Shown: positions 15,641 to 64,000, counted from the stretch's first letter. The stretch: DNA of 64,000 nt from Sedimenticola sp. (GCA_026196475.1 JAPHTA010000014.1:934-64933); one strand, 5' to 3'. Notes: generated from the sequence alone by a model not told the origin. Made by a program: numbers and translations.

Positions 15641-15650
15641 GGAGTCGACT

Positions 15651-16571
15651 ATGGCTACAGGTGAACTCTCGATCAGAAACCAGGAAGGTATCACCTGGCG
15701 GCACTACTACGAGATGACCAAGCCGAAGATCATCCTGCTGATCGCCTTCACGGCGTTGGTTGGCATGCTGCTCTCGACACCCGGGATAGTACCCTGGCAA
15801 CCGTTACTGTTCGGTCTGGCGGGTATCTCTCTGGCAGCGGCCTGCGGCGCGGTAGTAAACCATATCATCGACCAGCGTATCGACGCCCTGATGGAGCGCA
15901 CCAGTCGACGACCGTTTCCCAGTGGTGAGATGGACACCCCGCACGCGGTCAGCTTCGCCCTGCTGCTGGGCGTCGCCTCGATGCTGCTGCTGGGTGTGCT
16001 GGTCAACCTGCTGACTGCGGCACTCACCTTTCTCGCCCTGATCGGCTACGCCTTCATCTACACCCTCTACCTGAAGAGGAACACACCGCAGAACATCGTC
16101 TGGGGCGGCCTGGCAGGTGCGGCGCCTCCCCTGCTCGGCTGGTGTGCGATCACCAACAGCGTACCGATGGAGGCTTTTCTGCTGCTACTGATCATCTTCG
16201 TCTGGACACCGCCCCACTTCTGGCCCCTGGCCATTCACCGCCGCGACGAGTATGCCCGGGCCAATGTCCCCATGCTCCCGGTAACCCACGGTATTCGCTT
16301 TACCAAGCAGCAGATCCTGCTCTACAGCCTGATGCTGCTGGCAGTCTCCCTGATGCCGTTCATGATCCGCATGAGTGGCTATATCTACCTGGCAGGGGCC
16401 CTGCTACTGGGTGGAGGGTTTGTCTACCACGCCTTCGTACTGTGGCGGGGGGAAGGCAGACAGCACGCCATGAAGACCTTCGGCTACTCCATCTTCTACC
16501 TCAGCATGCTGTTCGCCCTGCTACTGACCGATCACTACCTGGTACTGTTTTTTCCGGTACTGGGCGCCTGA
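15651..16571 (+). CDS. cyoE: Protohaem IX farnesyltransferase (haem O synthase), copy 1
   Basis: UbiA-family motifs are present (NHIIDQRIDALMERTSRRP, WTPPHFWPLAI). The ATG at 15651 follows AAGGAG. Confidence 0.9.
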   Translation: MATGELSIRNQEGITWRHYYEMTKPKIILLIAFTALVGMLLSTPGIVPWQPLLFGLAGISLAAACGAVVNHIIDQRIDALMERTSRRPFPSGEMDTPHAVSFALLLGVASMLLLGVLVNLLTAALTFLALIGYAFIYTLYLKRNTPQNIVWGGLAGAAPPLLGWCAITNSVPMEAFLLLLIIFVWTPPHFWPLAIHRRDEYARANVPMLPVTHGIRFTKQQILLYSLMLLAVSLMPFMIRMSGYIYLAGALLLGGGFVYHAFVLWRGEGRQHAMKTFGYSIFYLSMLFALLLTDHYLVLFFPVLGA

Positions 16572-19053: not shown

Positions 19054-19734
19054 ATGGACAAGCCGATGAGTGCCGGCCAGGAGAACAGAATAAACAAGGT
19101 CTGGGTGCTGCCCTTAACACTTCTGGCGCTGTTGCTCGGCATTACCGCCTATCTTCTTCTGTTGCCGGGTGAAAAGACGTCACCCGATAGACTGACAACC
19201 GTATCACTTGAAAGTGGAACCCTGATTCCCCGGACCCGTCCAATGACGCCCTTCGCCCTCACCGACCACCGGGGTCGTCCTTTCACCCAGTCCTCGGTAC
19301 AGGGACACTGGCGGCTGCTGTCGTTCGGCTACACCCACTGCCCGGACATCTGTCCCACCACCCTGGCGATGCTGGCGCGGCTGGATGACCAGCTACGGCA
19401 ACAGGCTCCGGAAATCGATATCCGTACGGCCTTTGTCAGCATAGACCCGGAACGGGATACAGAGGAGGTTCTGGCCGACTACGTGCCCTACTTCAACCCC
19501 GATTTTATCGGCGTCACCGGTAGCCCGCCGGAAATCGAAAAGCTCACCGGGCAACTGGGGATACTGTTTCAACGGGTGGACGGCGAGAACAGCGAAATGG
19601 GCTACCTGATGGATCACTCGGCCAGCATCATCCTTCTTAATCCGCAGGGAGAGTTCCAGGCAGTGTTTGGTGCCCCACACCAGGTAAATGCAATGGCGCG
19701 GGACCTGCAGACCCTGGTTCAGCAGCACCCCTGA
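19054..19734 (+). CDS. SCO1/SenC family copper chaperone
   Basis: It has the FGYTHCPDICP CxxxC motif, the downstream DHS histidine and an N-terminal anchor. Confidence 0.88.
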   Translation: MDKPMSAGQENRINKVWVLPLTLLALLLGITAYLLLLPGEKTSPDRLTTVSLESGTLIPRTRPMTPFALTDHRGRPFTQSSVQGHWRLLSFGYTHCPDICPTTLAMLARLDDQLRQQAPEIDIRTAFVSIDPERDTEEVLADYVPYFNPDFIGVTGSPPEIEKLTGQLGILFQRVDGENSEMGYLMDHSASIILLNPQGEFQAVFGAPHQVNAMARDLQTLVQQHP

Positions 19735-45046: not shown

Positions 45047-45604
45047 ATGCGTAAACTACTTAAATACCTGGCCTTAACGGCACTGGGATTGATCAACGTC
45101 GGCAATGCATCCGGAGCGGGTGGCAATTTCAGCCTGATCGCAGATAACGGCACACCCTACTCGCTCTCGGATTCCCGGGGAAATATTGTTGTACTTTCGT
45201 TTGGGTACACCTTTTGTCCGGATGTGTGTCCGACAGGACTGGCGACCATCAGCAGCGCCTTGAACAGCATCGGGGAAGCTGCACAACAAATCGATGCCCT
45301 GTTTATATCGGTGGACCCGGACCGTGACACCCCGGAAACCCTGGCAAAATACACCCGCTATTTCCATCCCAGACTGACCGGGCTAACCGGCCATGCTGAA
45401 TCGATTGCTGATGTTGCCAGACGCTATTACGCGCGTTTTGAATTCGTTGGGAAAGGCGAAACACCCAATTACACCATTGATCACACGGCAAGCTTTTACA
45501 TTATTGACAGGAATGGACAGTTGATAAACGTACTTCCTCATAGCGTTCCTCCAGACTCACTGGCAGAAAGTCTTCTTGTTGCTGTCAGGCAGCCAGTCAA
45601 ATAG
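45047..45604 (+). CDS. SCO1/SenC family copper chaperone (secreted or anchored)
   Basis: It has a signal-like N-terminus, the FGYTFCPDVCP CxxxC motif and the DHT histidine. Confidence 0.85.
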   Translation: MRKLLKYLALTALGLINVGNASGAGGNFSLIADNGTPYSLSDSRGNIVVLSFGYTFCPDVCPTGLATISSALNSIGEAAQQIDALFISVDPDRDTPETLAKYTRYFHPRLTGLTGHAESIADVARRYYARFEFVGKGETPNYTIDHTASFYIIDRNGQLINVLPHSVPPDSLAESLLVAVRQPVK

Positions 45605-52186: not shown

Positions 52187-52573
52187 ATGAAGCAGAAGAT
52201 TTTCAAGGAAAAGTACTCTCTGTACGAGATCCGATATGGGAAAGAAGAGATCCGGCACAACAGTGTTGATGAAATAATTGCCGCTCTGAGCCATATGATA
52301 AAGGATCATCCGGTCATTGCTTACATTGACATTTTTGATCAATACCAACACACGAAAAATCTGAACGGTGAAATCGCTCCAAATATCCAGGCAGCCAAGA
52401 ATATCGTCTTCTGCTTCGGCATGGAACTCCCGACTCCCGAAGTATTGGCAGTTCGGCCACGCAGTATCGGTGTTTGTGATTTGGGTGACAGCTATGTCAT
52501 TAACTTCATGGAAGCACCCAATGCCCAAGCCAACAGGACCATGGTTGAAATGATACAGTCACTCAAATCCTAG
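52187..52573 (+). CDS. Hypothetical 128-aa protein
   Basis: This is a clean ORF in the AT-richer segment, convergent with the P-type ATPase gene. I cannot assign a family with confidence; a faint DUF302-like pattern is not enough to call. Confidence 0.4.
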   Translation: MKQKIFKEKYSLYEIRYGKEEIRHNSVDEIIAALSHMIKDHPVIAYIDIFDQYQHTKNLNGEIAPNIQAAKNIVFCFGMELPTPEVLAVRPRSIGVCDLGDSYVINFMEAPNAQANRTMVEMIQSLKS

Positions 52574-52587
52574 CAGTACAAGAGGCA

Positions 52588-54987
52588 TCAGCTTCCGGCA
52601 GTTTCCAGAGGTGCTTCTCTACCCAGCCTGGACCAATCATCAGCCTGGGACGAATGGATCTGTTCCTCTTGAACGTTCCAACTATCCTGCTCCAGTGTCC
52701 TGGAAGAGTTCCACACCACCAGTATACTGCTGGAAGCCATCGCAAGTGCCGCGAACAACGGATTCAGCAGGCCTGACAACGCCAGGGGAATGGCTATTGC
52801 GTTGTACAGTAGTGCCCAGCCCATGTTCTGACGAACCCGCCTGCGCACGGTCTTCAGCAGATCGAGTGCAATGGAAATACGATCCAGCCTGTCTCCCGGG
52901 ATAATCAGATCGGCGGCATCGGCCGCCAGAGACGTAGGCACTCCAAATGCGATGCCCAAATCCGCCGCCGCCAGCGCCGGTCCATCGTTGCTGCCGTCGC
53001 CTATCATGACAACCCCGCCCCGGCCCTGCTCGCGCAGCTGGCTGATTATGGCCGCCTTGGTCTCAGGGGGAACACCTGCATGGTGCATGTCTACAGCGAC
53101 CTCGTAGCCTTCGGTCCGTTCCGCACCCGTTAGCATGACAACACGATACTTTTCGCGTAAACCGGCCACAAACGTCTTCCATGCCGGACGGGGTTGATCA
53201 CCAGTCAAAATCGCACCAACCGCCTCGCCCGACCACCCGACATAGGATGTGACGCTACCCATCGGCTGACTTTTCACCTGGTCCAGCAACGATTTCGGTA
53301 TCGTCCAGCCCAATAACCTGAATAGTGCCTGGCTGCCGACCACCACTCTTTTGCCTTCAACCCACGCCTCTGCCCCTTTTCCGGGATGGATAACCGGATT
53401 CATCGCCTCACACCTGGCATCCAGCCTGGCGATGGCGGTGGCTACAGGGTGGTGCGAAAATCGCTCTACTGCAGCAGCGTTCCACTCCACCTCGGGTGGA
53501 CCGATGACTGCTGTCACCCGCATGACTCCTGTCGACAGGGTTCCGGTCTTGTCGAGAGCAATGGACTTGATATGCGCGGCCTTTTCATAGGCACCCGAGC
53601 GGCCGATTATGATGCCGTGTTTAAGTGCAGTACTGACGGCAGCCGCCGTTGTCAGCGGTACTGCCAACCCAAACGTGCAGGGGCAGGAGACAATCAGGGT
53701 GGCCAATCCAGCCAACAGGGCGGTCCCGGTCGGAGCACCGCTCAGCAATAAACCTGCTGTTACTGCGACTGCAAGAAATAGAACAAGGGGTACGAATATT
53801 CTGGCAAACCGGTCAGCCACTCCGAGTAAACCGTCCGATGTACTCTGCGCGCGCCATAGAATTCTGGCCAATGACTCCATCTGGCTCTCTACCGATTCAC
53901 CTACCGTCACGGTCAGCTCCCCTTCTACCAGGGTTGTCCCTCCAAGTACCTCCTCTCCAGAGCTACGGGTAACTGGATGTGGCTCCCCTGTCATCAGCGA
54001 CTCATCTAGCGCACCCATACCCTGGTAAATGGTTCCATTAACAGGCACGAATTCACCTTGCGAAACAACAAATCGATCCCCGGGAGTTAGCTCTTCCGTT
54101 CCAATTTCAACAAGCTTGTCGCCCTGAATCACCCTTGTCTTAGGATTCCAGGCTGAAATGATTCGGGAAAGTTCGGCGGTTGCAGCGAATTTCGCCTCTT
54201 TTTCAAAATATCGTCCGGCGGTTACTACCGTCACGATTACGGCAGCCACATCAAAATAGAGGTCGTGGGAACCGTGCAACATTTGGTAGGTACTGTAGCC
54301 ATAGGCGGCAAGGATGGCGATGGCGAGCAGATTATCCATGTTCAGAGACCCAGCCCTGATCCCTATCCATGCACCACGAAGAATCGGAAAACCCACGTAA
54401 ACGACCAGCAACGTCGTGAGAATAAACATCACGCGAGGTGCCGCATAGTAGGCCAGCCAATGCATCGAACTCAGATCATCCGCAGCTACCAGGCCCAGGT
54501 TCGTTGGGTAGAAGAAGGCCAGGTACAGCATCATGACAACAGCTGAAAGACTTACCCCCGTTAAAAGCCTGAGTAGCGGAAGGTTATCGCTGGACTGCTC
54601 GGCCATCCCGGACCTGAATCCGGCCTTGTAACCGGTACGAGTCAATATCCCGGGTAGTTCCGACTCGTCAATAATCTCGGGATCGTAGGTGACCCTGGCT
54701 GTGGAAGTCGCATAACAGGCTGTTACTTCCAGTACTCCTCTGGCCCGTTCTCCCAGTTTTTTGAGCATGAACTCACAGGAGGCACAATGCATTCCGTCTA
54801 TACGCAGGTAAGCCTCTCTACCCTCTACAGGGGACGAAGGCGTTTCGTTCTTGACCCGCTTGTAGGAATCCAGTATCTGATCGCCAAAATTTTCATAGAC
54901 CGTTTTACATCCGTAACAGCAAAAGCTATGGCCATCCTTCAGGACAGGCGGATTAGGAGTGGGCAAACCGCACAGTTTGCAGTTCAT
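52588..54987 (-). CDS. Copper-translocating P1B-type ATPase, CcoI/FixI-like paralogue
   Basis: It has an N-terminal CKLCG ... FCCYGCK domain plus an HMA site (GMHCASC), the TM CPC motif (VSCPCTFG), DKTGTLS and GDGSNDGP. Confidence 0.9.
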   Translation of the reverse strand: MNCKLCGLPTPNPPVLKDGHSFCCYGCKTVYENFGDQILDSYKRVKNETPSSPVEGREAYLRIDGMHCASCEFMLKKLGERARGVLEVTACYATSTARVTYDPEIIDESELPGILTRTGYKAGFRSGMAEQSSDNLPLLRLLTGVSLSAVVMMLYLAFFYPTNLGLVAADDLSSMHWLAYYAAPRVMFILTTLLVVYVGFPILRGAWIGIRAGSLNMDNLLAIAILAAYGYSTYQMLHGSHDLYFDVAAVIVTVVTAGRYFEKEAKFAATAELSRIISAWNPKTRVIQGDKLVEIGTEELTPGDRFVVSQGEFVPVNGTIYQGMGALDESLMTGEPHPVTRSSGEEVLGGTTLVEGELTVTVGESVESQMESLARILWRAQSTSDGLLGVADRFARIFVPLVLFLAVAVTAGLLLSGAPTGTALLAGLATLIVSCPCTFGLAVPLTTAAAVSTALKHGIIIGRSGAYEKAAHIKSIALDKTGTLSTGVMRVTAVIGPPEVEWNAAAVERFSHHPVATAIARLDARCEAMNPVIHPGKGAEAWVEGKRVVVGSQALFRLLGWTIPKSLLDQVKSQPMGSVTSYVGWSGEAVGAILTGDQPRPAWKTFVAGLREKYRVVMLTGAERTEGYEVAVDMHHAGVPPETKAAIISQLREQGRGGVVMIGDGSNDGPALAAADLGIAFGVPTSLAADAADLIIPGDRLDRISIALDLLKTVRRRVRQNMGWALLYNAIAIPLALSGLLNPLFAALAMASSSILVVWNSSRTLEQDSWNVQEEQIHSSQADDWSRLGREAPLETAGS

Positions 54988-55031
54988 TCCTGGCCTTCAC
55001 TTTCACCAAAGGAGCGTTCGCTCACGGTTTA

Positions 55032-55886
55032 TCACACAAACAGCACATCGAGTACCGTTCCTATCAGTAGCAGGGAAAGCTGAAGCAGTGATGCAAAGAA
55101 GCTTGCCATGGCATTTCGCCTGCCAGGATCCCTAATCATCAACAGGTTTCGATAGAGGAAATAACAACCCCCGCTCACGGCACCCGTAAGATACAGCCAA
55201 CCCATACCGTAAAAATAGGGCATTACAGAGATCGCCACCAAGATCAATGTGTTGCAAAGCACGACCTTGGCAGCGTATTCGTTACCTGCAATGGCTGGCA
55301 ACATGGGCACACCGGCTGCAGCATAGTCCTTGTTCTGAGCAATCGCCAGACTCCAGAAATGGGACGGTGTCCAGAAGAAGAGCACCAGGGCCAGTTGTAT
55401 TGGTACTGGCGAAAGCACCGGGTCCACGGTTGCGGCCCCCGCCAGTACGGCAAAGCTACCCGATGCCCCACCTATGACGATGTTCATCCAGGTACGCCGC
55501 TTCAGCCATACGGTGTACACTACCGCGTAAAAAAATGCGCCCAGGAAAATGTAGAGTGCCGCCATGCCATTCAGAACAGCAGCAGCTACCGCCACGCTGA
55601 CTAAAAGCAACCCGTTGATAACAATCAGCCAGAAAGGTCCCTTCGTTAGAGCGCCTGTCACAAAGGGTCGGTTTTTGGTCCGTGTCATCAGTGCATCGAG
55701 ATCCGCCTCATAATACTGATTGAACGCTCCCGCGCTGGCGGCCGCGACGAGAACGGCAATTGCCAGTACAGCAATTTCTGCAAGCGTCACCGATCGCCCT
55801 GGCGTAGCAGCCATTGCCACCAGCGCCGTTAACATCATGATAAAGCCTATTCGAAGCTTAAATAGATTAACCAATTGTTTAATCAT
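55032..55886 (-). CDS. Protohaem IX farnesyltransferase (haem O synthase), copy 2
   Basis: UbiA-family motifs are present (YYEADLDALMTRTKNRP, WTPSHFWSLAI). The ATG at 55886 is preceded by GAGGTG. It lies directly downstream of the divergent oxidase genes. Confidence 0.85.
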   Translation of the reverse strand: MIKQLVNLFKLRIGFIMMLTALVAMAATPGRSVTLAEIAVLAIAVLVAAASAGAFNQYYEADLDALMTRTKNRPFVTGALTKGPFWLIVINGLLLVSVAVAAAVLNGMAALYIFLGAFFYAVVYTVWLKRRTWMNIVIGGASGSFAVLAGAATVDPVLSPVPIQLALVLFFWTPSHFWSLAIAQNKDYAAAGVPMLPAIAGNEYAAKVVLCNTLILVAISVMPYFYGMGWLYLTGAVSGGCYFLYRNLLMIRDPGRRNAMASFFASLLQLSLLLIGTVLDVLFV

Positions 55887-56049
55887 GCAATCCCACCTCA
55901 CGCTTCACATCCAACGCTTTCTGTCGGCTGTTGAATATACAGTGCTTTATGTCGAAGCGGGCAGGACAAAGGGAGGTATCTACCTGCCCGCTTGACAAGC
56001 GCAACACCCTATTATGCTGCGACCCTACAAAGGGTTAACACGACCATTT

Positions 56050-57552
56050 TCATGAGATTGCTCTCGATTTGAAGAAGCTCTGCATGTAGGTGAAAAATCC
56101 GGCTATCAGAAAGAGGCCAAATACCAGGATGGCCACACCAACACTCATCCATCCACCTGCGTCCCAATCTGCGAAACGCCTCGGCATACCCATGGCACCA
56201 CCCGCAGCGAATGAATAAAGCAGGCCTACCGCACCAATGGTATAGAGCGTTACAAACCGGTTTCCGAGAACTTTATCGAGCTTTTTTCCTGTAATGACCG
56301 GATAGTGGTGGTAAAGCACACCCATCCACATCAGGGTCATGGCGATCAGAACCGACATCGCATGTCCACCCACCCAGAGGGTACCGTGGATCTGGTAGGA
56401 GACCGCCACATTGGCGGCAACCATGGCATTTACGCCATCCAGGATATAGACAACGAATCCAGCCAGGATCGCCATCAGGCCTGGCTCCGGCTTAATGCCG
56501 TGTTTCCAGATAGTCGCCAGAATCGTAAAGATCGAGAAAGCCGCACCAATACCAGTTCCCCAGCTCATGATGTTGCCATGATACGACAGCGCTGTGGGGA
56601 GGCCTGGGTTTGTCGTATAGAAGTGATGGAAAAAGGAGGTTACCGAAGTAACCAACAGTATCCAAAGTGCAAGATTGGCCAGTTTATCGCTATAAAGCTT
56701 GCGGGTTCCATCAGCCAGGTATAGTGGCAAGGTGGCGTAGACTGCACTGATGACCATGATGGCCATGGCTTCCATCAGATTGTGGGCGAAAATATAGAAC
56801 ACGTACTGGAAGACCACGGGTTCGGAAGCCCAGGTTACGGCTTCCAGTGGAACTATGCCGTACAGTGCGAGCAATAAGGCACCCGCCACAATCATCAGGG
56901 GTGTCCCCGTTACGAGCAGGATCATGATGGACATCACCATGCCGAGCATCCCGGGGTCCTTGAGTGAACGCGCTGAAAGAAGCAACTCTTCACGCTGTTC
57001 ACCGAAAAATGACATACGGATGATCTGGAATGGATACAGGAATATCATGGACGTGAGTACCAGGGCAATTCCGGTAAACCCGAGCACCACCATATTCATG
57101 CTCCAGGCGCCCATCTGCGCACCCACCAACGGAAGGGGGTACATGACAGTGTAGGTGATCTTCAAACCACCCAGTACCGCCAGAGTCAGTAGCACCGCGC
57201 CTCCATTCATGCAGATATAGATCAGCGCGGTCAGTTTCCCGGATGCCGGTTTACCCATACATCCACCAGACCGGTGCAGACTGATGCCCATCATAAACTG
57301 GAACAGGAACGGAAAAGCCAACGCCGCTCCATGCAGTGTGATTGCGGTATAGAACAGATCCGAACCCATTTCTGCCATCTGTATGACCGGCATGCCGACG
57401 CCAAGCAGGATGGCGACGACCAACCAGACGAATGACGTCATGATCATCATCGCCGGCCAGGTGTTGATATCAGACAGCCCTGTACTCTCGTCGACCTCAA
57501 ACATTTTCCCCAGGAGAGGGGTACGCCTTATTGTTGCAGCTAACATAGTCAT
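56050..57552 (-). CDS. Divergent haem-copper oxidase superfamily subunit I (NO-reductase-like active-site motifs)
   Basis: This 12-TM protein has helix II TLHGAALAF, helix VI FYIFAHNLME (H-x3-E, no cross-link Tyr), helix VII SFFHHFYT and helix X HGTLWVGGHAM (Met at the second His position of HxH). A GAGAGGAA ribosome-binding site lies upstream. Confidence 0.8.
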   Translation of the reverse strand: MTMLAATIRRTPLLGKMFEVDESTGLSDINTWPAMMIMTSFVWLVVAILLGVGMPVIQMAEMGSDLFYTAITLHGAALAFPFLFQFMMGISLHRSGGCMGKPASGKLTALIYICMNGGAVLLTLAVLGGLKITYTVMYPLPLVGAQMGAWSMNMVVLGFTGIALVLTSMIFLYPFQIIRMSFFGEQREELLLSARSLKDPGMLGMVMSIMILLVTGTPLMIVAGALLLALYGIVPLEAVTWASEPVVFQYVFYIFAHNLMEAMAIMVISAVYATLPLYLADGTRKLYSDKLANLALWILLVTSVTSFFHHFYTTNPGLPTALSYHGNIMSWGTGIGAAFSIFTILATIWKHGIKPEPGLMAILAGFVVYILDGVNAMVAANVAVSYQIHGTLWVGGHAMSVLIAMTLMWMGVLYHHYPVITGKKLDKVLGNRFVTLYTIGAVGLLYSFAAGGAMGMPRRFADWDAGGWMSVGVAILVFGLFLIAGFFTYMQSFFKSRAIS

Positions 57553-57567
57553 TTCCTCTCGTGTACT

Positions 57568-58146
57568 TTAGCTGGACTTATCCGTCGCTTTTACAACCGT
57601 TAGTTCATCCTGCATGCCGTGATGTGCAATTCCGCAGTACTCCAGACAGCGCACCTTGTACTTACCCGGCTCGGTAAACGTATAAACAAGCGATGAAGCC
57701 TTCTCCAGTCCCGGAATCAACATCATGTTGAAAAGTATTTTTCCGTTAGGGTGATATACGGTAAAGCCATGCATCGTATCCACGCTCTTTACCGAGAAGC
57801 GAACAGGCTTGCCAACTTCAAACTCCCGATCGGAAATTTCGTAGCTCCAGGATCGAGCCGTCACATCCACATCCTGTATAGCCACCCCGGATGCCTCTGT
57901 CGCTGCTGTCTTCGACATCGGCATGTAGCTGATGCTGTATACGTTCGCGATCACGAAAAGCGCTACAGCGCTGAAAATCCAGACTGTTTCAATGCGCGTT
58001 AATTTTCCACGGCCTGTATTGCTCGGTGTTGGGTCAACAAAACACTTTCGATAGACAATGAACGGAAATACAAGCAGGAAAGGAAGTTGAAAAAGAAGCA
58101 TCAAGGTAAACGCTCCCCAACCAGTTTGATATATAAAATCAAGCAT
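57568..58146 (-). CDS. Haem-copper oxidase subunit II with intact CuA centre
   Basis: It has two N-terminal TM helices and a cupredoxin domain with DTMHGF and CLEYCGIAHHGM (C-x3-C-x3-H-x2-M). Confidence 0.8.
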   Translation of the reverse strand: MLDFIYQTGWGAFTLMLLFQLPFLLVFPFIVYRKCFVDPTPSNTGRGKLTRIETVWIFSAVALFVIANVYSISYMPMSKTAATEASGVAIQDVDVTARSWSYEISDREFEVGKPVRFSVKSVDTMHGFTVYHPNGKILFNMMLIPGLEKASSLVYTFTEPGKYKVRCLEYCGIAHHGMQDELTVVKATDKSS

Positions 58147-58459
58147 ATTCTGATATCCCTTTAGTGATTAGTGGATGACTGCATTGTAAAAAAGTGGCAA
58201 TCAGGGCTAATTGCAGCACCTAAGGACAGTACAAAGCTAACAACTCGTTAGTTGGCGGGTTCAGTTGCAACATCAAACCTAGTGTCATGAAGTATCTCCT
58301 CCTCGCAGTGATTATTATTTATTTAAAACCGGCTTCATGGTCTGAATAATCGATAGATTACTCATCCTTCCGCTTCGCCCGGAATGCCGTCATCAAACGG
58401 CACCCCCGGCTGTGTTTTACGACAAGAGCCTACGCACTACCTGTAGGTAATCTCTTTAT

Positions 58460-58489
58460 GACGGCATATGACGCAATTTGTATGCCGTC
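58460..58489. repeat. Perfect 9-bp inverted repeat GACGGCATA-N12-TATGCCGTC in a long non-coding region
   Basis: I read this directly from the sequence; coordinates may be off by 1-2 nt. It lies ~320 nt upstream of the oxidase subunit II start. Confidence 0.6.
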
Positions 58490-58862
58490 TTGTATCTCAC
58501 AACGGATGTCGGTTCCGGAAAACGGTCGGAGGCATCAACCCGGAAACACTCAAACACCCTGAAATATATGGTTTTTTCTTTTTGTGGTAAACAGGAAGTA
58601 GATTAGCCTGGGATGTCAGTTTAACGAGGGAGTAAAACAGGGGATTTTGCAGGAGACAAATCCCATACCAATTCTGGCACAGGATGTAACACTATCTGTC
58701 GGTATACATTAAGAGTGCAGTGACCATACAAGCTATCAGGAACATCGCGTCAAGAATTACTGCATATACTTATACTCTTCATTTCCCGCCCTGCTGCGGG
58801 AATCGAGGGAAAAGAAAGAAAGGATCGTAATCCCGGGCGGGCGGGAGAGCAAAAGGCGGGGC

Positions 58863-59021
58863 TCATGTTGGTCGATCAGAACTCTTTTCCTTGTGACGAG
58901 AATAGAAATAGATCACCAGGTTCTTGGAACCGAACATCACCGCGACAAAAACGAGGCCGATCAGAAACCCGATCCAGGGCTGATCCTTCAGGAGATCGAT
59001 AAACCAGAGTGTGCCACCCAT
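58863..59021 (-). CDS. Possible small membrane protein (52 aa)
   Basis: This is the C-terminal part of a 147-aa track ORF. From the internal Met it reads MGGTLWFIDLLKDQPWIGFLIGLVFVAVMFGSK with one clear TM helix. No convincing ribosome-binding site is present. Confidence 0.3.
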   Translation of the reverse strand: MGGTLWFIDLLKDQPWIGFLIGLVFVAVMFGSKNLVIYFYSRHKEKSSDRPT

Positions 59022-59148
59022 CGCCGTTGCACCATATCCGTGATTGCTGTTGTCCTGTAGAATAGCGCCGTTTGCAGCGTCGACGACATGACAATTCACA
59101 ACCGGCAACACCACTCCTGACACCCGCACCGGCGCAGGTACTTCCCCG

Positions 59149-59814
59149 ATGGAACGAAAACTCTTTCTTGGCATTCTCTCCGTTACCCTGGTCGCACTGG
59201 CCATTGCCCTGTTGTTGCCGGGTGGGCGCACACCTGATCGCGAACCGAGACTCCCCTGGCTGATCGAGGTGAACGAACTGGGCGCCCTGAAGGTGTTCGG
59301 TATCACCCTGGGAGAGAGTACGCTGCAACAGGCCCGGGAGAACCTGCAGGACCAGGGAAAGGTGACCCTGTTCCAGTCGCCAGAGGGTCAATACCGCACC
59401 GAGGCATACTTCCAGCGCCTCTTTCTGAGCGGGCTGAAAGCAGACCTGGTGCTGACCCTGGCGGTAGGTGTAAACGAGGCGCAGGAAATGTTCGAACGAG
59501 GTGAGCGGATCAGCCAGATGGGCAGCGGCACCCGAAAGATCGAGCTATCCAGTCGTGACCTGGAGGCGCTGTCACAAGCGCCGGTCGCCTCCATCACCTT
59601 CATCCCGGCGGCGGACCTGGACGCCGATCTGCTGAGTGGTCGCTTTGGCGAACCGGCGCGGCGGGTGAAAGAGACAGGTTCAGAGATCGTCCACTGGCTG
59701 TACCCGGAGAGAGGTCTGGATATCGCGCTCAACCCGGATGGCAAGGAGGTGTTCCAGTACGTCAAGCCGGCTGATTTCGGGCAGCTCACCGAACCGCTTA
59801 CCGGCCAGGAGTAG
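59149..59814 (+). CDS. Hypothetical membrane-anchored/exported protein
   Basis: This 221-aa ORF has an N-terminal hydrophobic anchor (LFLGILSVTLVALAIALLL) and non-repetitive composition. I recognise no family. Confidence 0.5.
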   Translation: MERKLFLGILSVTLVALAIALLLPGGRTPDREPRLPWLIEVNELGALKVFGITLGESTLQQARENLQDQGKVTLFQSPEGQYRTEAYFQRLFLSGLKADLVLTLAVGVNEAQEMFERGERISQMGSGTRKIELSSRDLEALSQAPVASITFIPAADLDADLLSGRFGEPARRVKETGSEIVHWLYPERGLDIALNPDGKEVFQYVKPADFGQLTEPLTGQE

Positions 59815-59824
59815 ATCACCCGGT

Positions 59825-60148
59825 TCAGTCGTCCGTGGACGCCAACTCCTCCGCAATATAGCGCCGGATTAAACCGTAGGCGTTAAGGGTGCTGGCCAGC
59901 AGCCAGAGCAGAATCACGAGACCGACCAAAAGGATGGCAGCGCGGCTCTGTGGTAACAGCAGAACCAGGATGGCGACCAGAGACAACAGAACCAGTGCGC
60001 CGATCAAGGCCCGTTTCAGCATCCCTTTCAACAGCGCCTCGGCAGCCTCCCTGCGGTCGACACCGGACTCGAGCAGGGATTGGCGCAGGGACTGGTAGCT
60101 GTTCTCTTTTCGCCGCTCGACACGGCCGAAGGGATCGTTCAGTTTCAA
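59825..60148 (-). CDS. Hypothetical two-helix membrane protein co-transcribed with ccoS
   Basis: An ATGA overlap joins it to the ccoS stop. It has two hydrophobic helices. Confidence 0.5.
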   Translation of the reverse strand: MKLNDPFGRVERRKENSYQSLRQSLLESGVDRREAAEALLKGMLKRALIGALVLLSLVAILVLLLPQSRAAILLVGLVILLWLLASTLNAYGLIRRYIAEELASTDD

Positions 60149-60438
60149 GACCCCTTCCCCTGCGACGGCTCCCCTTCCTGCGTCTTCTCTTCAGGGTCTC
60201 CGGTCACCGCCGCGGCGGAGTCGGCAGACGCCTTCTGATCGCCCTGATCAGGGGTACTGCTCCCGTTTTCGTCCTTGCCGTGTGATTTCCGCTGGGACAG
60301 GTCATCATCCATCAGGATACGGTTCGCCTCCCCCTCCAGGTCCTCGAACTGGCCGCTCCTGGCGGCCCAGAAAAATACCGCCACGCCGACCAGTCCGAGG
60401 ATCAGCATGCCGGGAATCAACCCGTAAATCACGTCCAT
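60145..60438 (-). CDS. ccoS: cbb3-type cytochrome oxidase maturation protein CcoS/FixS (with long hydrophilic tail)
   Basis: MDVIYGLIPGMLILGLVGVAVFFWAARSGQFEDLEG is the CcoS signature. Confidence 0.85.
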   Translation of the reverse strand: MDVIYGLIPGMLILGLVGVAVFFWAARSGQFEDLEGEANRILMDDDLSQRKSHGKDENGSSTPDQGDQKASADSAAAVTGDPEEKTQEGEPSQGKGS

Positions 60439-60463
60439 TCAGCCACTCCTGCGTCTGATTCGT

Positions 60464-62947
60464 TCAACCACGCTGGAGACCCCGGAACAGTGTCCGGATA
60501 CGCCCCGCGTTACCGATTACCAGCAGCGAGCTGATCGGCATCGAGACGGCCGCCACCAGAGGTGTGACAAAGGCCGCCATCGCCAACGGTACCATAATCA
60601 GATTATACGTGATCGAGATACCGATATTCTGGCGTATGGTGCGCAGGGTGCGGCGCGACAGCGCGGAGGCCAGACGCACCTTGTCCAGTTCACTGCTCAT
60701 CAGCACGATATCGGCACTGGCGATCGAGACGTCGGTACCGGAGCCGAGGGCGATCCCCACGTCGGCACGCACCAGTGCCGGTGCGTCATTCACCCCGTCG
60801 CCGACCATCGCCACCCGGTGGCTGTGCTGCTGCAGCTGGTCGATCACCCGGTCCTTGTCCTCGGGCAACACCTCGGCAATCACCGTCATGCCGCCAAGAC
60901 GGGCGGCGATCGCCTCCGCCGTGGCCTGCCGGTCGCCACTGAGCATGGTGATACGCATACCCGCCGCCTTCAGGTCCGCCACCAGGGCAGCGGCGTCCTC
61001 CCGCAGCGGGTCCTCGATACCGGCCACTGCCACCAGCCTGCCATCCACCGCGCAGAACAGGCTTCCGCTGCCGGCCTGGTCGAGCGCCTGCGCGGCCTGC
61101 TCCAGCCTGGAGTCCGAAACCACGCCGCTCTCCTCCATCCAGAGCCGGCTGCCAAGCACCACCGGCCTGCCATCAACCCGTCCCGAGACGCCGTATCCGG
61201 GCCGGTTCACAAAGCCGCTGACCCGTTTTCTGTCCGCCTTCAACCCGACGCCTTCGGCTGCCGTGATCAGGGCCCGGGCGATCGGATGCTCGGAGAACTG
61301 CTCCAGCTGCTGGAACTGGTCCAGCAACACCCTGATCCCCGGCTCCGCGGGGTCACCAGGTCGCCACTGCCGATCGGCCAGATCCAGGGAAGTCAACTGC
61401 ATTCTCCCCTGGGTCAGGGTTCCGGTCTTGTCGAACACGAAATGGTCTATGGAAGAGAAACGCTCCAGCACATCACCATTGCGAACCAGGATACCGTGCC
61501 GGGCACCGAGGCCGGTGGCCACCGCGATGGACATCGGCGTGGCCAGGCCAAAGGCACAGGGACAGGTGATAATCAGCACCGCCGTTGCCGCCATCAGGGC
61601 CAGTTCGAAATCGGTATCCAACCACCAGAAGAAGGTCGCCGTGGCCAGTCCGATGGTAATGGCGACGAACCAGGGAACGATGCGATCGGCCACGCACTGT
61701 ATCGGCGCCTTGCTCGCCTGTGCCTCCTCCACCAGGCGGATAATGCGCCCCAGGGCGCTGTCCCTGAGCAGGCCGGTCACCTCGATCTGCAGGGCACCGC
61801 TGCCGTTGATGGTGCCGGCTGAGACCCCATCCCCGGCCTGCTTGGCGATCGGTTGCGATTCGCCAGTGAGCATCGCCTCGTCGACCCGGCTCTCCCCCTC
61901 CTGCACGCAGCCATCCACCGGAATCCGTTCCCCCGGTCGCACCAGTACCCGGTCACCCGGCTTCACCGAGCGAATCGGCACCACCTTCTCGCCCTGTGGC
62001 AGCAGCAGCGTCGCCACCCTGGGCTGCAGGTCCAGCAGGCGCTGGGTGGAGGCCACCGCCTGGCGCTTGGAGATCGCCTCCAGGTAGCGGCCGACCAGGA
62101 TCACGAAGATGAAGTTGACCACCGTATCGTAGTAGACCTCGGCATTGACCGAGCCACTGAGCATGACGTAGACGGAGTAGAGGTAGGTAATGGAGGCGCC
62201 GATGGCGATCGGCACATCCATCCCGAGATGCAGGTTGCGAATACCCGACCAGGCCCCCTTGAAGAAGGGGGACCCGGAGTAGATCAGGGTCGGAGTGGCG
62301 AGTGCGAAGCCGACCCACTGGAAGAGGGACCGAAACTCGCCCTTGTCCGCACCGCTGTAGAGCGCAATGGAGATCCAGAGCAGGTTCATCATGGTGAAAC
62401 CGGCAAAGCCCATGCGATAGAGCAGGTGCCGGTTTTCACGTTTCAGACGGTCCTCAGCGGCATCAGGATCGTAGGGAACCGCGGCGTAGCCGATCTCCCC
62501 CAGTCGACGGATGATCTGCGACAGCTTTATCCGGCCGTTGTCCCAGGTCACGTGCAGCCGGCGACCGGACAGGTTGACCCGGGCGTTAACCACTCCGGCC
62601 ATGCCGAGCAGGGTCTGTTCGATCAGCCAGACACAGGCGGCACAGTGGATTCCCTCCACCAGCAGATGGATCTCCCGGGTCTCTCCCAGGTTCTCAACAA
62701 ACTCCTCCTGCACCTCGTCCAGGTCGTACAGGGCCAGCTCTTTCGGTAGTTCGGGAGGGGGTGCCAGTGGCGTGCCGTCGTACATCCGCTGGTAGAAACC
62801 CTCCAGCCCGGCGCTATAGATCGCCTCGCAGACCGAGCGGCAGCCGTTGCAGCAGAAGCTGCGCGGCTGCCCCTCGATCTCGGCAACAATCTCCTCGTTC
62901 ACCGGCAGCGCGCAGTGAAAACAGTGTTTTTCGACCCGGGTATTCAC
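60464..62947 (-). CDS. ccoI: Copper-translocating P1B-type ATPase CcoI/FixI
   Basis: It has an N-terminal CFHCALP ... FCCNGCR domain, HMA GIHCAACV, ITCPCAFG, DKTGTLT and GDGVNDAP. It sits between ccoH and ccoS. Confidence 0.92.
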   Translation of the reverse strand: MNTRVEKHCFHCALPVNEEIVAEIEGQPRSFCCNGCRSVCEAIYSAGLEGFYQRMYDGTPLAPPPELPKELALYDLDEVQEEFVENLGETREIHLLVEGIHCAACVWLIEQTLLGMAGVVNARVNLSGRRLHVTWDNGRIKLSQIIRRLGEIGYAAVPYDPDAAEDRLKRENRHLLYRMGFAGFTMMNLLWISIALYSGADKGEFRSLFQWVGFALATPTLIYSGSPFFKGAWSGIRNLHLGMDVPIAIGASITYLYSVYVMLSGSVNAEVYYDTVVNFIFVILVGRYLEAISKRQAVASTQRLLDLQPRVATLLLPQGEKVVPIRSVKPGDRVLVRPGERIPVDGCVQEGESRVDEAMLTGESQPIAKQAGDGVSAGTINGSGALQIEVTGLLRDSALGRIIRLVEEAQASKAPIQCVADRIVPWFVAITIGLATATFFWWLDTDFELALMAATAVLIITCPCAFGLATPMSIAVATGLGARHGILVRNGDVLERFSSIDHFVFDKTGTLTQGRMQLTSLDLADRQWRPGDPAEPGIRVLLDQFQQLEQFSEHPIARALITAAEGVGLKADRKRVSGFVNRPGYGVSGRVDGRPVVLGSRLWMEESGVVSDSRLEQAAQALDQAGSGSLFCAVDGRLVAVAGIEDPLREDAAALVADLKAAGMRITMLSGDRQATAEAIAARLGGMTVIAEVLPEDKDRVIDQLQQHSHRVAMVGDGVNDAPALVRADVGIALGSGTDVSIASADIVLMSSELDKVRLASALSRRTLRTIRQNIGISITYNLIMVPLAMAAFVTPLVAAVSMPISSLLVIGNAGRIRTLFRGLQRG

Positions 62948-63090
62948 CTGCGAATCGCCCCTCGCACCCCGTCTGCGGGGTACTGCCGGCGAAGCATACC
63001 GGAGAGCGCTGACCGTCGGCCAACCATCAGGTGGCTGCCGAGGGGCGTGGCATGGCGGGATCGTCAGTCAGTAAACGTGGCACTGTCGAT

Positions 63091-63585
63091 TCAGTTCACC
63101 CCGGCACTGACCCGGTGCGGGAGGTGATACTCGTCCTCCCCGTGTCTGGCACTGATCAGGATGTCCCAGACACCGAGCAGGGGGAAGCTTACCTCAGCCC
63201 GATAGACGCCAGCGTCCCGCACGCTCATCGGGACCGAAAAATCCTGCCTGGCATCAGACGGCCTGTAGGCGTGGAAGGTAACCGAGTCCGGTGCCACCGC
63301 ATTACCCTGCTTGTCCAGGATTCGCACACCGAAGTCGGCCGGCTCGGCAACGCCTACCGACCCGGGTGACAGCAGCTTCATCTCCCAGCCGGGATCCCGG
63401 GCCTGGCGCTTGAGCATGTTTTGCTCGAAATTCTGTCCCCGCTCGTAATAGTCATCCACCACCAGCCCCGGGTTGTTGGTCACCGCCAGGTAAACCATGA
63501 TGAAGTTGGCGATCAGGAAGACCACCAGCAGCCCGATCCAGCCGAGCACCCAGGGGTTGGTCCAGGGGGATTGTTTCTCTGTCAT
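63091..63585 (-). CDS. ccoH: FixH/CcoH family cbb3 oxidase assembly protein
   Basis: From the internal ATG it reads MTEKQSPWTNPWVLGWIGLLVVFLIANFIMVYLA, an anchor followed by a periplasmic domain. The gene order is ccoG-H-I-S. Confidence 0.78.
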   Translation of the reverse strand: MTEKQSPWTNPWVLGWIGLLVVFLIANFIMVYLAVTNNPGLVVDDYYERGQNFEQNMLKRQARDPGWEMKLLSPGSVGVAEPADFGVRILDKQGNAVAPDSVTFHAYRPSDARQDFSVPMSVRDAGVYRAEVSFPLLGVWDILISARHGEDEYHLPHRVSAGVN

Positions 63586-63640
63586 CTCAGTCACGCTGAC
63601 ATCCTCGTACGGTGTTGCGCCAGGTTCCGCCCCGCGGTGG

Positions 63641-64000
63641 TTACCTGGGACCAATAAATACACTTTCCCGTTGCGCGGTGTACACATTTCCGCTGGCATC
63701 ACGGGTCTCGGCATGGAAGGTTATGGGTATAGACTCCGCATCCAGGTTCCTCCTCGGCACCCTGACGAACACGGTGCGCGGGGTCACCATCCCCTTGCCG
63801 GCGTCAACCGGTTCATCGGCACCCACCACCACGAGACCTTCAATACCGCTGGCAGTGATCGTCACCGCCAGCGGTTCGGTCATCTTGTTGAGTACCTTGA
63901 CGGTATACTTGTTCTGGATCGAACCATCACTCTGCAGTACAAACAGGGGCTGCCTGGCGTGGATCACCTTGATCTCGATCGCATCCAGGGTCGACATTCC
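63641..64000 (-). CDS. ccoG: CcoG/FixG C-terminal part (5' end outside the window)
   Basis: The ORF is open to the window end. The Ig-like C-terminal domain sequence and the position upstream of ccoH fit FixG. Confidence 0.7.
   Translation of the reverse strand, partial: GMSTLDAIEIKVIHARQPLFVLQSDGSIQNKYTVKVLNKMTEPLAVTITASGIEGLVVVGADEPVDAGKGMVTPRTVFVRVPRRNLDAESIPITFHAETRDASGNVYTAQRESVFIGPR

What the first reader, a model, noticed from the sequence alone, without database searches (positions are those of the whole stretch)
52588..58146. A divergent CuA-containing haem-copper oxidase with NO-reductase-like H-x3-E and a Met in the helix-X HxH position has a dedicated Cu-ATPase and haem O synthase
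The operon order is subunit II, subunit I, ctaB copy 2, then a CcoI-like ATPase.
- Subunit II has a complete CuA site (H ... CLEYCGIAHHGM).
- Subunit I keeps the helix II His, the helix VI His and the helix VII HH.
- The canonical GHPEVY is AHNLME, so the cross-linked Tyr position (His+4) is Glu. That is the spacing of the His207/Glu211 FeB ligands in cNOR.
- The universal helix X HxH (AHFHY in the aa3 copy in this window, GHFH in ba3) reads GGHAM, putting Met where the low-spin haem His ligand should be.

This combination suggests a member of the poorly characterised NOR-like branches of the superfamily (sNOR/eNOR-type), possibly with unusual His/Met low-spin haem ligation. It sits next to a formaldehyde/formate oxidation module that could feed it electrons.
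Basis: partly seen in the sequence, partly recalled or inferred. Interest (0 to 1): 0.7.

Follow-up and report, generated by a model that had tools for sequence, protein, structure and literature searches.

The report
nNOR-type nitric oxide reductase operon
This four-gene operon in a Sedimenticola-like bacterium encodes a member of the already described but never purified "nNOR" family of predicted nitric oxide reductases, so the unusual residues are real but they are that family's published hallmarks, not a new discovery.

Summary
On the minus strand lie subunit II with a complete CuA site, a divergent haem-copper subunit I, a second haem O synthase and a CcoI-like Cu+ P-type ATPase.

- **Key residues.** In subunit I, Glu261 takes the place of the cross-linked Tyr (H257-x3-E261). 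Met399 takes the place of the helix X low-spin-haem His (H397-A-M399). Two independent alignments agree, and both residues are invariant in every relative examined.
- **Published family.** This pattern is the published definition of nNOR (Murali et al. 2024): B-family-related, CuA subunit II, cNOR-like three His plus Glu, His/Met low-spin haem. The preprint's table scores two Sedimenticola genomes as nNOR=1, and the window protein is 91% identical to the S. selenatireducens protein.
- **Tree.** It sits in a clade with 100/100 bootstrap support that is distinct from the sNOR-type clade (H-x3-N, HFH). So "sNOR/eNOR-type" is the wrong branch.
- **Function.** NO reduction is predicted only. I found no report that any nNOR has been assayed.

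Beyond the paper's main text: in 80 species-level loci the ATPase is present wherever the contig reaches far enough (70/80), and haem O synthase in 42/80. Glutathione-dependent formaldehyde dehydrogenase (also a GSNO reductase) genes recur next to nNOR in several gene orders. Interest is modest.

The parts
57568..58146 (-). nNOR subunit II: two predicted N-terminal membrane helices plus a cupredoxin domain with a complete CuA site (H127, C167, E169, C171, H175, M178)
   Evidence: Weak hits to PF00116 and TIGR02866 CoxB, both below cut-off. Motifs located. The C-x-E-x-C-x3-H-x2-M motif and an upstream xxHGF/HSF His are present in 79 of 79 loci that include the gene. The two membrane helices are read from the sequence, not predicted by a tool.
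56050..57552 (-). nNOR subunit I: 12-helix haem-copper catalytic subunit. H74 and M399 would be the low-spin haem ligands and H397 the high-spin haem ligand. H257, H309, H310 and E261 form the binuclear-site metal site. Y272, Y278, T343 and T347 are proton-channel candidates. The true start may be two codons downstream (MLAAT...), as in homologues.
   Evidence: AF2 model: pLDDT 80.6, pTM 0.86, 12 long helices. Foldseek best matches are A-family and ba3 subunit I, TM 0.66-0.78.
55032..55901 (-). Second haem O synthase (CtaB/CyoE paralogue) dedicated to the nNOR. The start is possibly at Met6 (55886).
   Evidence: TIGR01473 at 251.9 bits, above the 210.3 cut-off. A haem O synthase lies within about 3 kb of nNOR in 42 of 80 loci. 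The first copy is in the aa3 cluster at 15603-16571.
52588..54987 (-). CcoI/FixI-like Cu(I)-exporting P1B-type ATPase. It is presumed to supply periplasmic Cu for nNOR maturation (CuA and possibly the binuclear site).
   Evidence: TIGR01525 at 407 bits, above cut-off; TIGR01511 (Cu-specific) at 371.5, below its 397 cut-off. HMA domain plus a weak PF12156 N-terminal Cys-rich domain. CPC, YN(x)4P and M(x)2SS motifs (and the sequence). Aligns end to end at 31% identity with the window's canonical CcoI at 60464-62947. Adjacent to nNOR in 70 of 80 loci.
58147..58500 (-). 5' leader and promoter region of the operon. It carries a conserved GAGGAGG-ATG mini-ORF (58220-58288) and repeated ATGACGGCAT/ATGCCGTCAT elements (58384-58396, 58455-58467, 58480-58489). 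Function unknown; possibly regulatory.
   Evidence: Alignment with three Sedimenticola loci, translation, repeats. No FNR-type box and no Rfam match.

Best explanation
The operon encodes an nNOR-family haem-copper oxidoreductase, the family named and described by Murali, Hemp, Gennis and co-workers (2019 and 2021 preprints, PNAS 2024), together with two maturation genes.

Shown here:
- Subunit II is a CuA cupredoxin.
- Subunit I keeps the six canonical metal-ligand positions except that Met399 replaces the helix X low-spin-haem His. Glu261 replaces the cross-linked Tyr four residues after the first metal-binding His.
- The protein sits in a tightly supported clade in which both substitutions are invariant.

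Inferred mechanism:
1. Electrons enter from a periplasmic donor, probably cytochrome c, at CuA.
2. They pass to a His/Met-ligated low-spin haem. The family's describers expect this ligation to raise the potential by about 150 mV.
3. They then reach a binuclear centre made of a high-spin haem and a metal held by three His and one Glu, as in cNOR. Two NO are reduced there to N2O.
4. Without the His-Tyr cofactor, four-electron O2 reduction should be poor.
5. A Tyr/Thr ladder on helices VI and VIII (Y272, Y278, T343, T347) could bring protons from the cytoplasm, which would make the enzyme electrogenic, unlike cNOR.

Accessory genes (inferred roles):
- The linked haem O synthase suggests that the high-spin haem is farnesylated (haem O or a derivative), not haem B as in cNOR.
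- The linked CcoI-like Cu(I) pump supplies copper to the periplasmic side for CuA, and perhaps for the binuclear site.

Confidence that this is an nNOR family member is about 0.93. Confidence that its physiological reaction is NO reduction is about 0.6.
For: - **Residues.** Positions and equivalences. Invariance in 30 homologues, 80 loci and relatives at 32-59% identity.
- **Tree.** The neighbour-joining tree puts the query in the H-x3-E/H-x-M clade with 100/100 bootstrap. The sNOR-type clade (H-x3-N, HFH) is separate, and B- and A-type sequences lie outside.
- **Published description.** The nNOR description matches point for point: B-family related, CuA subunit II, cNOR/qNOR active-site residues, His/Met low-spin haem, conserved proton channel.
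- **Channel residues.** The published nNOR channel residues E242, Y253 and Y259 have spacings +11 and +17, identical to E261, Y272 and Y278 here.
- **Congeneric genomes.** The preprint's Supplementary Table 4 scores S. selenatireducens GCF_000428045.1 and S. thiotaurini GCF_001007875.1 as NNOR=1, alongside two cNORs, nirS and nosZ. The window protein is 91% and 88% identical to proteins of these species. The only nNOR-pattern locus found in the S. selenatireducens DSM 17993 genome has the same gene order.
- **No substitute Tyr.** The cbb3-type helix VII position, six residues before HH, is Ser303. Tyr312 is not conserved.
- **Accessory genes.**
Against: - No nNOR has been purified or assayed. 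The literature search found only genomic mentions, so NO reductase activity is a prediction by analogy.
- Several features are typical of O2 reductases rather than of cNOR/qNOR: CuA, a farnesyl-haem synthase, a CcoI-like Cu pump and a cytoplasmic proton channel.
- The identity of the binuclear-site metal (Fe or Cu) is unknown.
- No denitrification genes and no FNR/DNR-type box adjoin the operon.
- The host already has two cNORs, so a respiratory role would be redundant.
- I could not run the authors' curated family HMMs or include their named reference sequences. The PNAS datasets are not held.
- Met-haem ligation could not be checked geometrically, because model coordinates are not exposed and the model has no cofactors.
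Confidence: 0.8

Rival explanations
1. It is an sNOR- or eNOR-type enzyme.
For: sNOR is the nearest other family. The FIND preprint states that nNOR and sNOR are closely related and are confused by classifiers. The next-best full-length hits after the nNOR clade carry the sNOR-type motif. Some eNORs have a non-His (Lys) low-spin ligand.
Against: sNOR and bNOR have Asn at His+4 and keep HFH. eNOR has Gln there (Suppl. Table 1; residue table). The query has Glu and H-x-M. It is only about 22-28% identical to the sNOR-type proteins. It falls in a separate clade with 100/100 bootstrap support.
Confidence: 0.03
2. It is a specialised O2 reductase, a terminal oxidase that works without the His-Tyr cofactor, not an NO reductase.
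For: It has CuA, a dedicated haem O synthase, a CcoI-like Cu pump and a K-channel-like Tyr/Thr ladder, all of which are oxidase-like features. FixL/FixJ-like regulators adjoin it in 31 of 80 loci. Public annotation calls it 'cbb3-type cytochrome c oxidase subunit I'. No denitrification genes are adjacent.
Against: There is no Tyr at the helix VI cross-link position or at the cbb3-type helix VII position. The HCO literature treats that cofactor as required for four-electron O2 reduction (abstract text). A Glu as fourth ligand is the cNOR/qNOR signature. The 'cbb3' name is an automatic label: no NCBIfam oxidase model comes near its cut-off.
Confidence: 0.1
3. It reduces NO, but as part of a detoxification module for nitrosative and formaldehyde stress, working alongside glutathione-dependent formaldehyde dehydrogenase/GSNO reductase, rather than as a respiratory denitrification enzyme.
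For: - Class III ADH (TIGR02818, 637 bits), S-formylglutathione hydrolase and Gfa, all above NCBIfam cut-offs, lie within 10 kb of nNOR in 19, 12 and 14 of 80 loci.
- They occur in several gene orders. In L073, ADH3, ctaB and the ATPase are tightly spaced on one strand, divergent from subunits II and I. In L077, subunit II, subunit I, ADH3 and gfa lie on one strand. Rhodocyclales have ATPase then ADH3-fghA, with gfa on the opposite strand.
- In this window the neighbour is an H4MPT/formate-dehydrogenase module instead.
- The host already has two cNORs for respiration.
Against: Many of the 19 loci are related Rhodocyclales, so the number of independent events is small, perhaps four to six. No control for background adjacency was possible. 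The GSNO reductase activity of class III ADH is recalled knowledge and was not tested here. Most alphaproteobacterial loci lack these genes. In the window itself the C1 genes are convergent, not co-transcribed.
Confidence: 0.2

Closest known systems
nNOR family of haem-copper oxidoreductases (Murali et al., PNAS 2024; first mentioned in the FIND preprint, 2019)
   Same: Glu at the cross-link Tyr position with three His. Met at the helix X low-spin-haem position. CuA subunit II. Tyr at +11 and +17 from the Glu. Relationship to sNOR and the B family. Sedimenticola genomes are already scored as carrying one nNOR.
   Different: Nothing in the enzyme itself. The window protein belongs to a proteobacterial subclade (at least 60% identity) that has acquired a dedicated CcoI-like ATPase and often a haem O synthase. 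Three deep-branching members (36-40% identity) have only subunits II and I together. The paper's main text does not mention these accessory genes.
sNOR (NorSY type, found in ammonia oxidisers and Bacillus azotoformans)
   Same: It is the closest other family. It has a CuA subunit II, no cross-linked Tyr, Tyr at +11 and +17 on helix VI in most of the sequences examined, and is B-family related.
   Different: sNOR has Asn, not Glu, at His+4 and keeps the bis-His HFH motif. Identity to the query is only about 22-28%.
cNOR (NorBC, e.g. Pseudomonas aeruginosa)
   Same: Both have a His-x3-Glu arrangement giving three His plus Glu around the non-haem metal, and both lack the Tyr cofactor (residue numbers His207/Glu211 are from my own knowledge of the 2010 crystal structure).
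   Different: cNOR is related to the C family, uses a cytochrome c subunit (NorC) instead of CuA, contains no copper, has bis-His haem b and haem b3, and lacks a cytoplasmic proton channel. It gave no sequence hit in the PDB profile search. The resemblance is convergent.
B-family oxygen reductase (Thermus thermophilus ba3)
   Same: The overall fold matches (Foldseek TM 0.66-0.69). Both have a CuA subunit II, a farnesylated-haem requirement and a single K-channel analogue on helices VI-VIII.
   Different: ba3 has the cross-linked Tyr237 and the bis-His GHFH motif. Sequence similarity is too low for a PDB sequence hit.
CcoI/FixI (CopA2-type) Cu(I) ATPase of the ccoGHIS cbb3-maturation cluster
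   Same: Same architecture: N-terminal Cys-rich domain, one HMA domain, and CPC / YN(x)4P / M(x)2SS motifs. It aligns full length at 31% identity with the window's own CcoI.
   Different: It is a separate paralogue linked to nNOR, not to ccoGHS. Its N-terminal PF12156 match is weak (23 bits, below cut-off). Its client enzyme is inferred, not shown.

Membership tests
nNOR | Catalytic subunit of the haem-copper superfamily with 12 membrane helices | tested here: met
   PF00115 at 149.6 bits. AF2 model with 12 long helices, pTM 0.86. Foldseek matches to A- and B-family subunit I with probability 1.00.
nNOR | cNOR/qNOR-like active site: three His plus a Glu in place of the cross-linked Tyr | tested here: met
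   H257-x3-E261 and H309-H310. E261 aligns with the Tyr of GHPEVY. Invariant in the whole clade.
nNOR | Low-spin haem ligated by His and Met (helix X His replaced by Met) | tested here: met
   M399 aligns with the second His of HFH in two independent alignments. It is invariant down to 32% identity. This is met at the sequence level only; actual ligation needs spectroscopy or a structure.
nNOR | CuA-containing cupredoxin subunit II | tested here: met
   H127 and C167-x-E-x-C171-x3-H175-x2-M178. The motif is present in 79 of 79 loci.
nNOR | Conserved helix VI channel residues (E242, Y253, Y259 in the Aigarchaeota reference) | tested here: met
   E261, Y272 (+11) and Y278 (+17) have identical spacing. 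They are invariant across the clade.
nNOR | Conserved helix VIII channel residues ((S/T)324, (N/T)327, T331 in the reference) | tested here: inconclusive
   T343 is at the matching offset (+82) and T347 is invariant. The +85 and +89 offsets give Ala and Lys.
nNOR | Falls in the nNOR clade or is recognised by the authors' nNOR HMM | tested here: inconclusive
   My own tree gives a 100/100 clade defined by the nNOR residues. The authors' table scores two Sedimenticola genomes as NNOR=1. Their HMMs and named reference sequences could not be run here.
nNOR | NO reductase activity | not testable with these tools
   The family's describers propose this activity only from modelling and context. No later biochemical report was found.
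sNOR | Asn at His+4 (same active site as bNOR) and a bis-His low-spin haem | tested here: not met
   The query has Glu and H-x-M. All 17 sNOR-type sequences have N at that position and HFH (reference residues).
eNOR | Gln at the Tyr position (Q245 in R. marinus) with a B-type K channel including Ser318/His321 | tested here: not met
   The query has Glu261, not Gln.
cNOR | Cytochrome c (NorC) partner subunit, no copper, C-family relationship | tested here: not met
   The partner is a CuA cupredoxin. The nearest structures are A- and B-family.
B-family O2 reductase | Cross-linked His-Tyr cofactor on helix VI | tested here: not met
   Glu261 occupies the Tyr position, and there is no conserved substitute Tyr on helix VII.
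P1B-1 Cu(I) ATPase, CcoI/FixI type | CPC in TM4, YN(x)4P in TM5, M(x)2SS in TM6, DKTGT, an HMA domain and an N-terminal Cys-rich domain | tested here: met
   The PF12156 N-terminal match is weak (23.1 bits against a cut-off of 27).
Haem O synthase (CtaB/CyoE) | Scores above the curated equivalog cut-off | tested here: met
   TIGR01473 at 251.9 bits against a cut-off of 210.3.

The most novel reading that the evidence does not exclude
In Proteobacteria the nNOR has become the core of a self-contained module. The module has its own CcoI-like copper pump, often its own haem O synthase, FixLJ-like or IclR-type regulators, and recurrently glutathione-dependent formaldehyde dehydrogenase/GSNO reductase genes, in one case apparently in the same operon as the maturation genes.

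The most novel reading the evidence leaves open is that this enzyme is a haem-O- and copper-dependent catalyst whose physiological job is tied to GSNO/NO or formaldehyde stress rather than to respiratory denitrification. Its binuclear metal might be Cu rather than Fe.
Probability: 0.2. Interest if true: 0.6.

Novelty: new member of a known kind. Interest (0 to 1): 0.3.

Why it matters
nNOR is one of four predicted NO-reductase families that together were estimated to make up a large share of NOR diversity in nature. No member has been purified.

Sedimenticola species are cultivable denitrifiers, so this operon is a practical entry point. It could be used to test whether a His/Met low-spin haem and a three-His-plus-Glu site in a B-family scaffold really make an electrogenic NO reductase. 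That question bears on N2O budgets and on how proton pumping relates to active-site chemistry.

The conserved Cu pump and haem O synthase give concrete, testable predictions about cofactor content. The recurrent formaldehyde dehydrogenase/GSNO reductase neighbours give a new hypothesis about physiological role.

As a discovery in itself it is a re-identification of a published family.

Tried and rejected
- **FNR/DNR/NnrR-type box upstream of subunit II.** I searched TTGAT-N4-ATCAA with up to 2 mismatches. There is no site in 58147-59148.
- **Rfam scan of the roughly 1 kb leader.** No match.
- **Promoter and terminator scans.** Counts are no better than in shuffled sequence.
- **PDB sequence searches.** A single-sequence search and a profile search gave only weak A-family hits, with no B-family or NOR structures. 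The relationship to ba3 rests on fold comparison and on the literature.
- **PNAS supplementary datasets.** They are not held. I used the preprint's tables instead.
- **Thioalbus protein context.** A look-up of the Thioalbus protein found nothing on record.
- **Unbiased neighbour clustering.** My own six-frame ORF calls were confounded by long spurious antisense ORFs in high-GC loci. I relied instead on targeted tblastn with known proteins and on the Pfam-annotated contexts.
- **Alternative low-spin ligands.** I considered the invariant H415-H416 (YHHYP). They lie about 16 residues further along helix X, near the opposite membrane face, and are not conserved in deep family members.
- **Substitute Tyr.** I considered a cbb3-style helix VII Tyr. 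That position is Ser303, and Tyr312 varies.

Full report
**What is there**

Four genes lie head to tail on the minus strand:
- a 192-aa subunit II (57568-58146);
- a 500-aa subunit I (56050-57552), starting 15 nt after subunit II;
- a 289-aa UbiA-family protein (55032-55901);
- a 799-aa P-type ATPase (52588-54987).

Pfam and NCBIfam identify them as follows.
- Subunit II is a weak COX2/CoxB-like cupredoxin.
- Subunit I is a divergent COX1. It scores 149.6 bits on PF00115, but its best NCBIfam oxidase model gives 82 bits against a 670-bit cut-off.
- The third gene is haem O synthase (TIGR01473, 251.9 bits, above cut-off).
- The fourth is a heavy-metal P1B ATPase with an HMA domain and a weak CcoI-type N-terminal Cys-rich domain. 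It passes TIGR01525 and falls just short of the Cu-specific TIGR01511 cut-off.

The window also holds a complete caa3-type oxidase cluster with its own ctaB, ctaA, ctaG, SURF1 and SCO1. It also holds a canonical ccoGHIS set with a second CcoI. "ctaB copy 2" and "CcoI-like ATPase" are therefore both accurate.

**The residues**

Subunit I has H74, H257-N-L-M-E261, H309-H310 and G-G-H397-A-M399. Subunit II has H127 and C167-L-E-Y-C171-G-I-A-H175-H-G-M178, a full CuA ligand set.

A profile-profile alignment of the family against the window's own aa3 subunit I puts AHNLME on GHPEVY and GGHAM on AHFH. A phmmer alignment to B. subtilis aa3-600 (6KOC) gives the same register. So Glu261 sits where the cross-linked Tyr should be. 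His397 is the high-spin-haem ligand, and Met399 sits where the low-spin-haem His should be.

No substitute is visible.
- The cbb3-type helix VII Tyr position is Ser303, and Tyr312 is variable.
- The invariant H415-H416 lie about 16 residues further along helix X and are lost in deep relatives.

**Conservation and placement**

The closest proteins are from Sedimenticola selenatireducens (91% identity), S. thiotaurini (88%) and Thioalbus denitrificans (72%). Hundreds of metagenomic proteins are more than 60% identical. Those that carry an NCBI name are labelled "cbb3-type cytochrome c oxidase subunit I".

In 30 of them H74, H257, E261, H309, H310, H397 and M399 are invariant. The same holds in 80 species-level genomic loci.

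An exhaustive search of 50%-identity representatives falls off sharply:
- one cluster at 59% identity;
- a handful at 32-40%, all with H-x3-E and H-x-M;
- then proteins at about 22-28% that carry H-x3-N and HFH, the sNOR/bNOR signature;
- then B- and A-type sequences with the GHP(L/I/E)VY motif.

A neighbour-joining tree puts the query in the H-x3-E/H-x-M clade with 100/100 bootstrap support. The sNOR-type clade is separate, with 71/100 support. The AF2 model (pLDDT 80.6, pTM 0.86, 12 helices) matches A-family and ba3 subunit I folds.

**This is a published family**

Murali et al. (PNAS 2024, PMC11214002) describe nNOR as follows (same text in the 2021 preprint; first noted in the 2019 FIND preprint):
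- B-family related, with a CuA-type secondary subunit;
[quoted passage not shown] - a conserved proton channel.

Their Supplementary Table 1 lists nNOR channel residues E242, Y253 and Y259. The +11 and +17 spacing is exactly that of E261, Y272 and Y278 here.

Their Supplementary Table 4 scores S. selenatireducens GCF_000428045.1 and S. thiotaurini GCF_001007875.1 as NNOR=1, alongside two cNORs, nirS, nosZ, nap and nar. The S. selenatireducens DSM 17993 locus has the same gene order as the window.

The enzyme is therefore an nNOR, not an sNOR or eNOR. The His/Met ligation is the family's known hallmark. I found no report of any nNOR being purified or assayed, so NO reduction remains a prediction.

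**Accessory genes**

I fetched 80 loci from species-representative genomes and searched them with the window's proteins.
- Subunit II is adjacent in 79 of 80. The exception is cut by the contig end.
- The ATPase is adjacent in 70 of 80. It lies either immediately downstream of subunit I or divergently upstream of subunit II. The ten loci without it are contigs that end within about 2.5 kb of the oxidase genes or right at the subunit II side.
- Haem O synthase lies within about 3 kb in 42 of 80.

The ATPase carries the Cu(I) signature motifs CPC, YN(x)4P and M(x)2SS. It aligns end to end with the window's CcoI at 31% identity. It is a CcoI paralogue that travels with nNOR.

Three deep-branching nNOR members (36-40% identity) have only subunits II and I together, on contigs of 4-16 kb. 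The maturation module is therefore a feature of the proteobacterial subclade.

The main text of the PNAS paper does not mention an ATPase or CtaB, so this linkage seems not to have been highlighted. It predicts a farnesylated high-spin haem and a strict copper requirement. It also leaves open whether the binuclear metal is Fe, as the Glu suggests, or Cu, as a CcoI-type pump might suggest.

**Regulation and neighbours**

The roughly 1 kb region upstream of subunit II has no FNR-type box and no Rfam match. It does have a conserved GAGGAGG-ATG mini-ORF and repeated ATGACGGCAT elements.

In Betaproteobacteria a FixL/FixJ-like two-component pair adjoins nNOR in 31 of 80 loci. The RR scores 242.5 bits on the FixJ model, just under its cut-off of 255. 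In a Maritimibacter locus an IclR-type regulator lies between the ATPase and subunit II.

**The C1 link**

In the window, the genes convergent with the operon are DUF6858, a NUDIX hydrolase, FolE2, an NAD-type formate dehydrogenase (FdsA/FdsB-like) preceded by a SCO1 gene, and H4MPT-pathway genes (Ftr, a GXGXG protein). Nothing shows that they feed this enzyme electrons.

Unexpectedly, bona fide genes of another formaldehyde pathway lie next to nNOR elsewhere. These are glutathione-dependent formaldehyde dehydrogenase/class III ADH (TIGR02818, 637 bits), S-formylglutathione hydrolase and Gfa. They occur in 19, 12 and 14 of 80 loci, in several different arrangements:
- Rhodocyclales: ATPase, then ADH3 and fghA, with gfa on the opposite strand, sometimes followed by fdsBA.
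- L073: ADH3, ctaB and the ATPase tightly spaced on one strand, divergent from subunits II and I.
- L077 (Maritimibacter): subunit II, subunit I, ADH3 and gfa on one strand.

Class III ADH is also the bacterial GSNO reductase. That is my own knowledge and was not tested here. The association could therefore reflect nitrosative-stress defence, or a link with methylotrophic or formaldehyde metabolism.

Many of these loci are phylogenetically related, and I could run no background control. I treat this as a lead, not a result.

**Verdict**

- The object is a new species-level member of a known, genomically described family. Its congeners were already tabulated as nNOR carriers.
- Interest is modest, at 0.3. 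What keeps it above trivial is that nNOR is biochemically untested, that Sedimenticola offers a cultivable host, and that the conserved Cu pump, haem O synthase and formaldehyde dehydrogenase/GSNO reductase neighbourhood yields specific experiments.

Noticed in passing
L073:4492-8912; L077:9414-13543; L003:12157-14803; summary of 80 loci: Glutathione-dependent formaldehyde oxidation genes recur next to nNOR in Beta- and Alphaproteobacteria, in different gene orders. They are class III ADH/GSNO reductase, S-formylglutathione hydrolase and Gfa, sometimes with fdsBA. In L073 the ADH is tightly spaced with the nNOR-linked ctaB and Cu-ATPase on one strand.
   Followed up: partly
window 58220-58304 (minus strand): A strong GAGGAGGAG ribosome-binding site followed by an ATG mini-ORF lies about 75 nt upstream of subunit II. 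The site and start codon are conserved in three Sedimenticola loci. Those loci encode a 12-aa peptide (M-x-I/L-A-L-I/M-F/V-A/T-T-E-P/V-G). A 1-nt difference gives a 22-aa peptide in the window.
   Followed up: partly
window 58384-58396, 58455-58467, 58480-58489: Three copies of ATGACGGCAT/ATGCCGTCAT lie in the operon's leader. Two of them form a 12-bp stem. The block GACGGCATA-AA-TTGC is conserved across Sedimenticola. It may be an operator for an unidentified regulator.
   Followed up: partly
L003:4396-6271 and 31 of 80 loci: A PAS histidine kinase and a FixJ-like response regulator adjoin nNOR in Betaproteobacteria and in one Sedimenticolaceae genome. The RR scores just below the FixJ equivalog cut-off. 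This hints at O2 or NO sensing. The pair is absent from the window.
   Followed up: partly
window 45047-45604: A second SCO1/SenC copper chaperone gene sits immediately upstream of, and slightly overlapping, the FdsB-like formate dehydrogenase gene. That is an odd partner. It may serve CuA assembly of the nNOR about 12 kb away. The first SCO1 copy is in the aa3 cluster at 19054-19734.
   Followed up: no
window 60145-63997 (minus strand): A canonical cbb3-maturation cluster is present: FixG C-terminal part, FixH, CcoI/FixI and FixS. It is separated from the nNOR operon by two unannotated ORFs (59149-59814 on the plus strand, 59825-60148 on the minus strand). GC content rises from about 52% to 62-65% across this boundary.
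   Followed up: partly
homologues P0001-P0120: Every NCBI/UniRef-named homologue of subunit I in the list is labelled 'cbb3-type cytochrome c oxidase subunit I' (JGI entries say 'cytochrome c oxidase subunit 1'). The cbb3 label is a systematic misannotation of the nNOR family in public databases.
   Followed up: yes
L089, L090, L091: Deep-branching nNOR relatives (36-40% identity) keep the subunit II-subunit I pair but have no adjacent Cu-ATPase or haem O synthase on the contigs recovered. The maturation module therefore appears to be a proteobacterial acquisition.
   Followed up: partly
window 52187-52573 (plus strand): A DUF6858 protein (183 bits) lies convergent to the ATPase gene, with the two stop codons 14 nt apart. 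Its adjacency is conserved only within Sedimenticola (3 of 80 loci). Function unknown.
   Followed up: no
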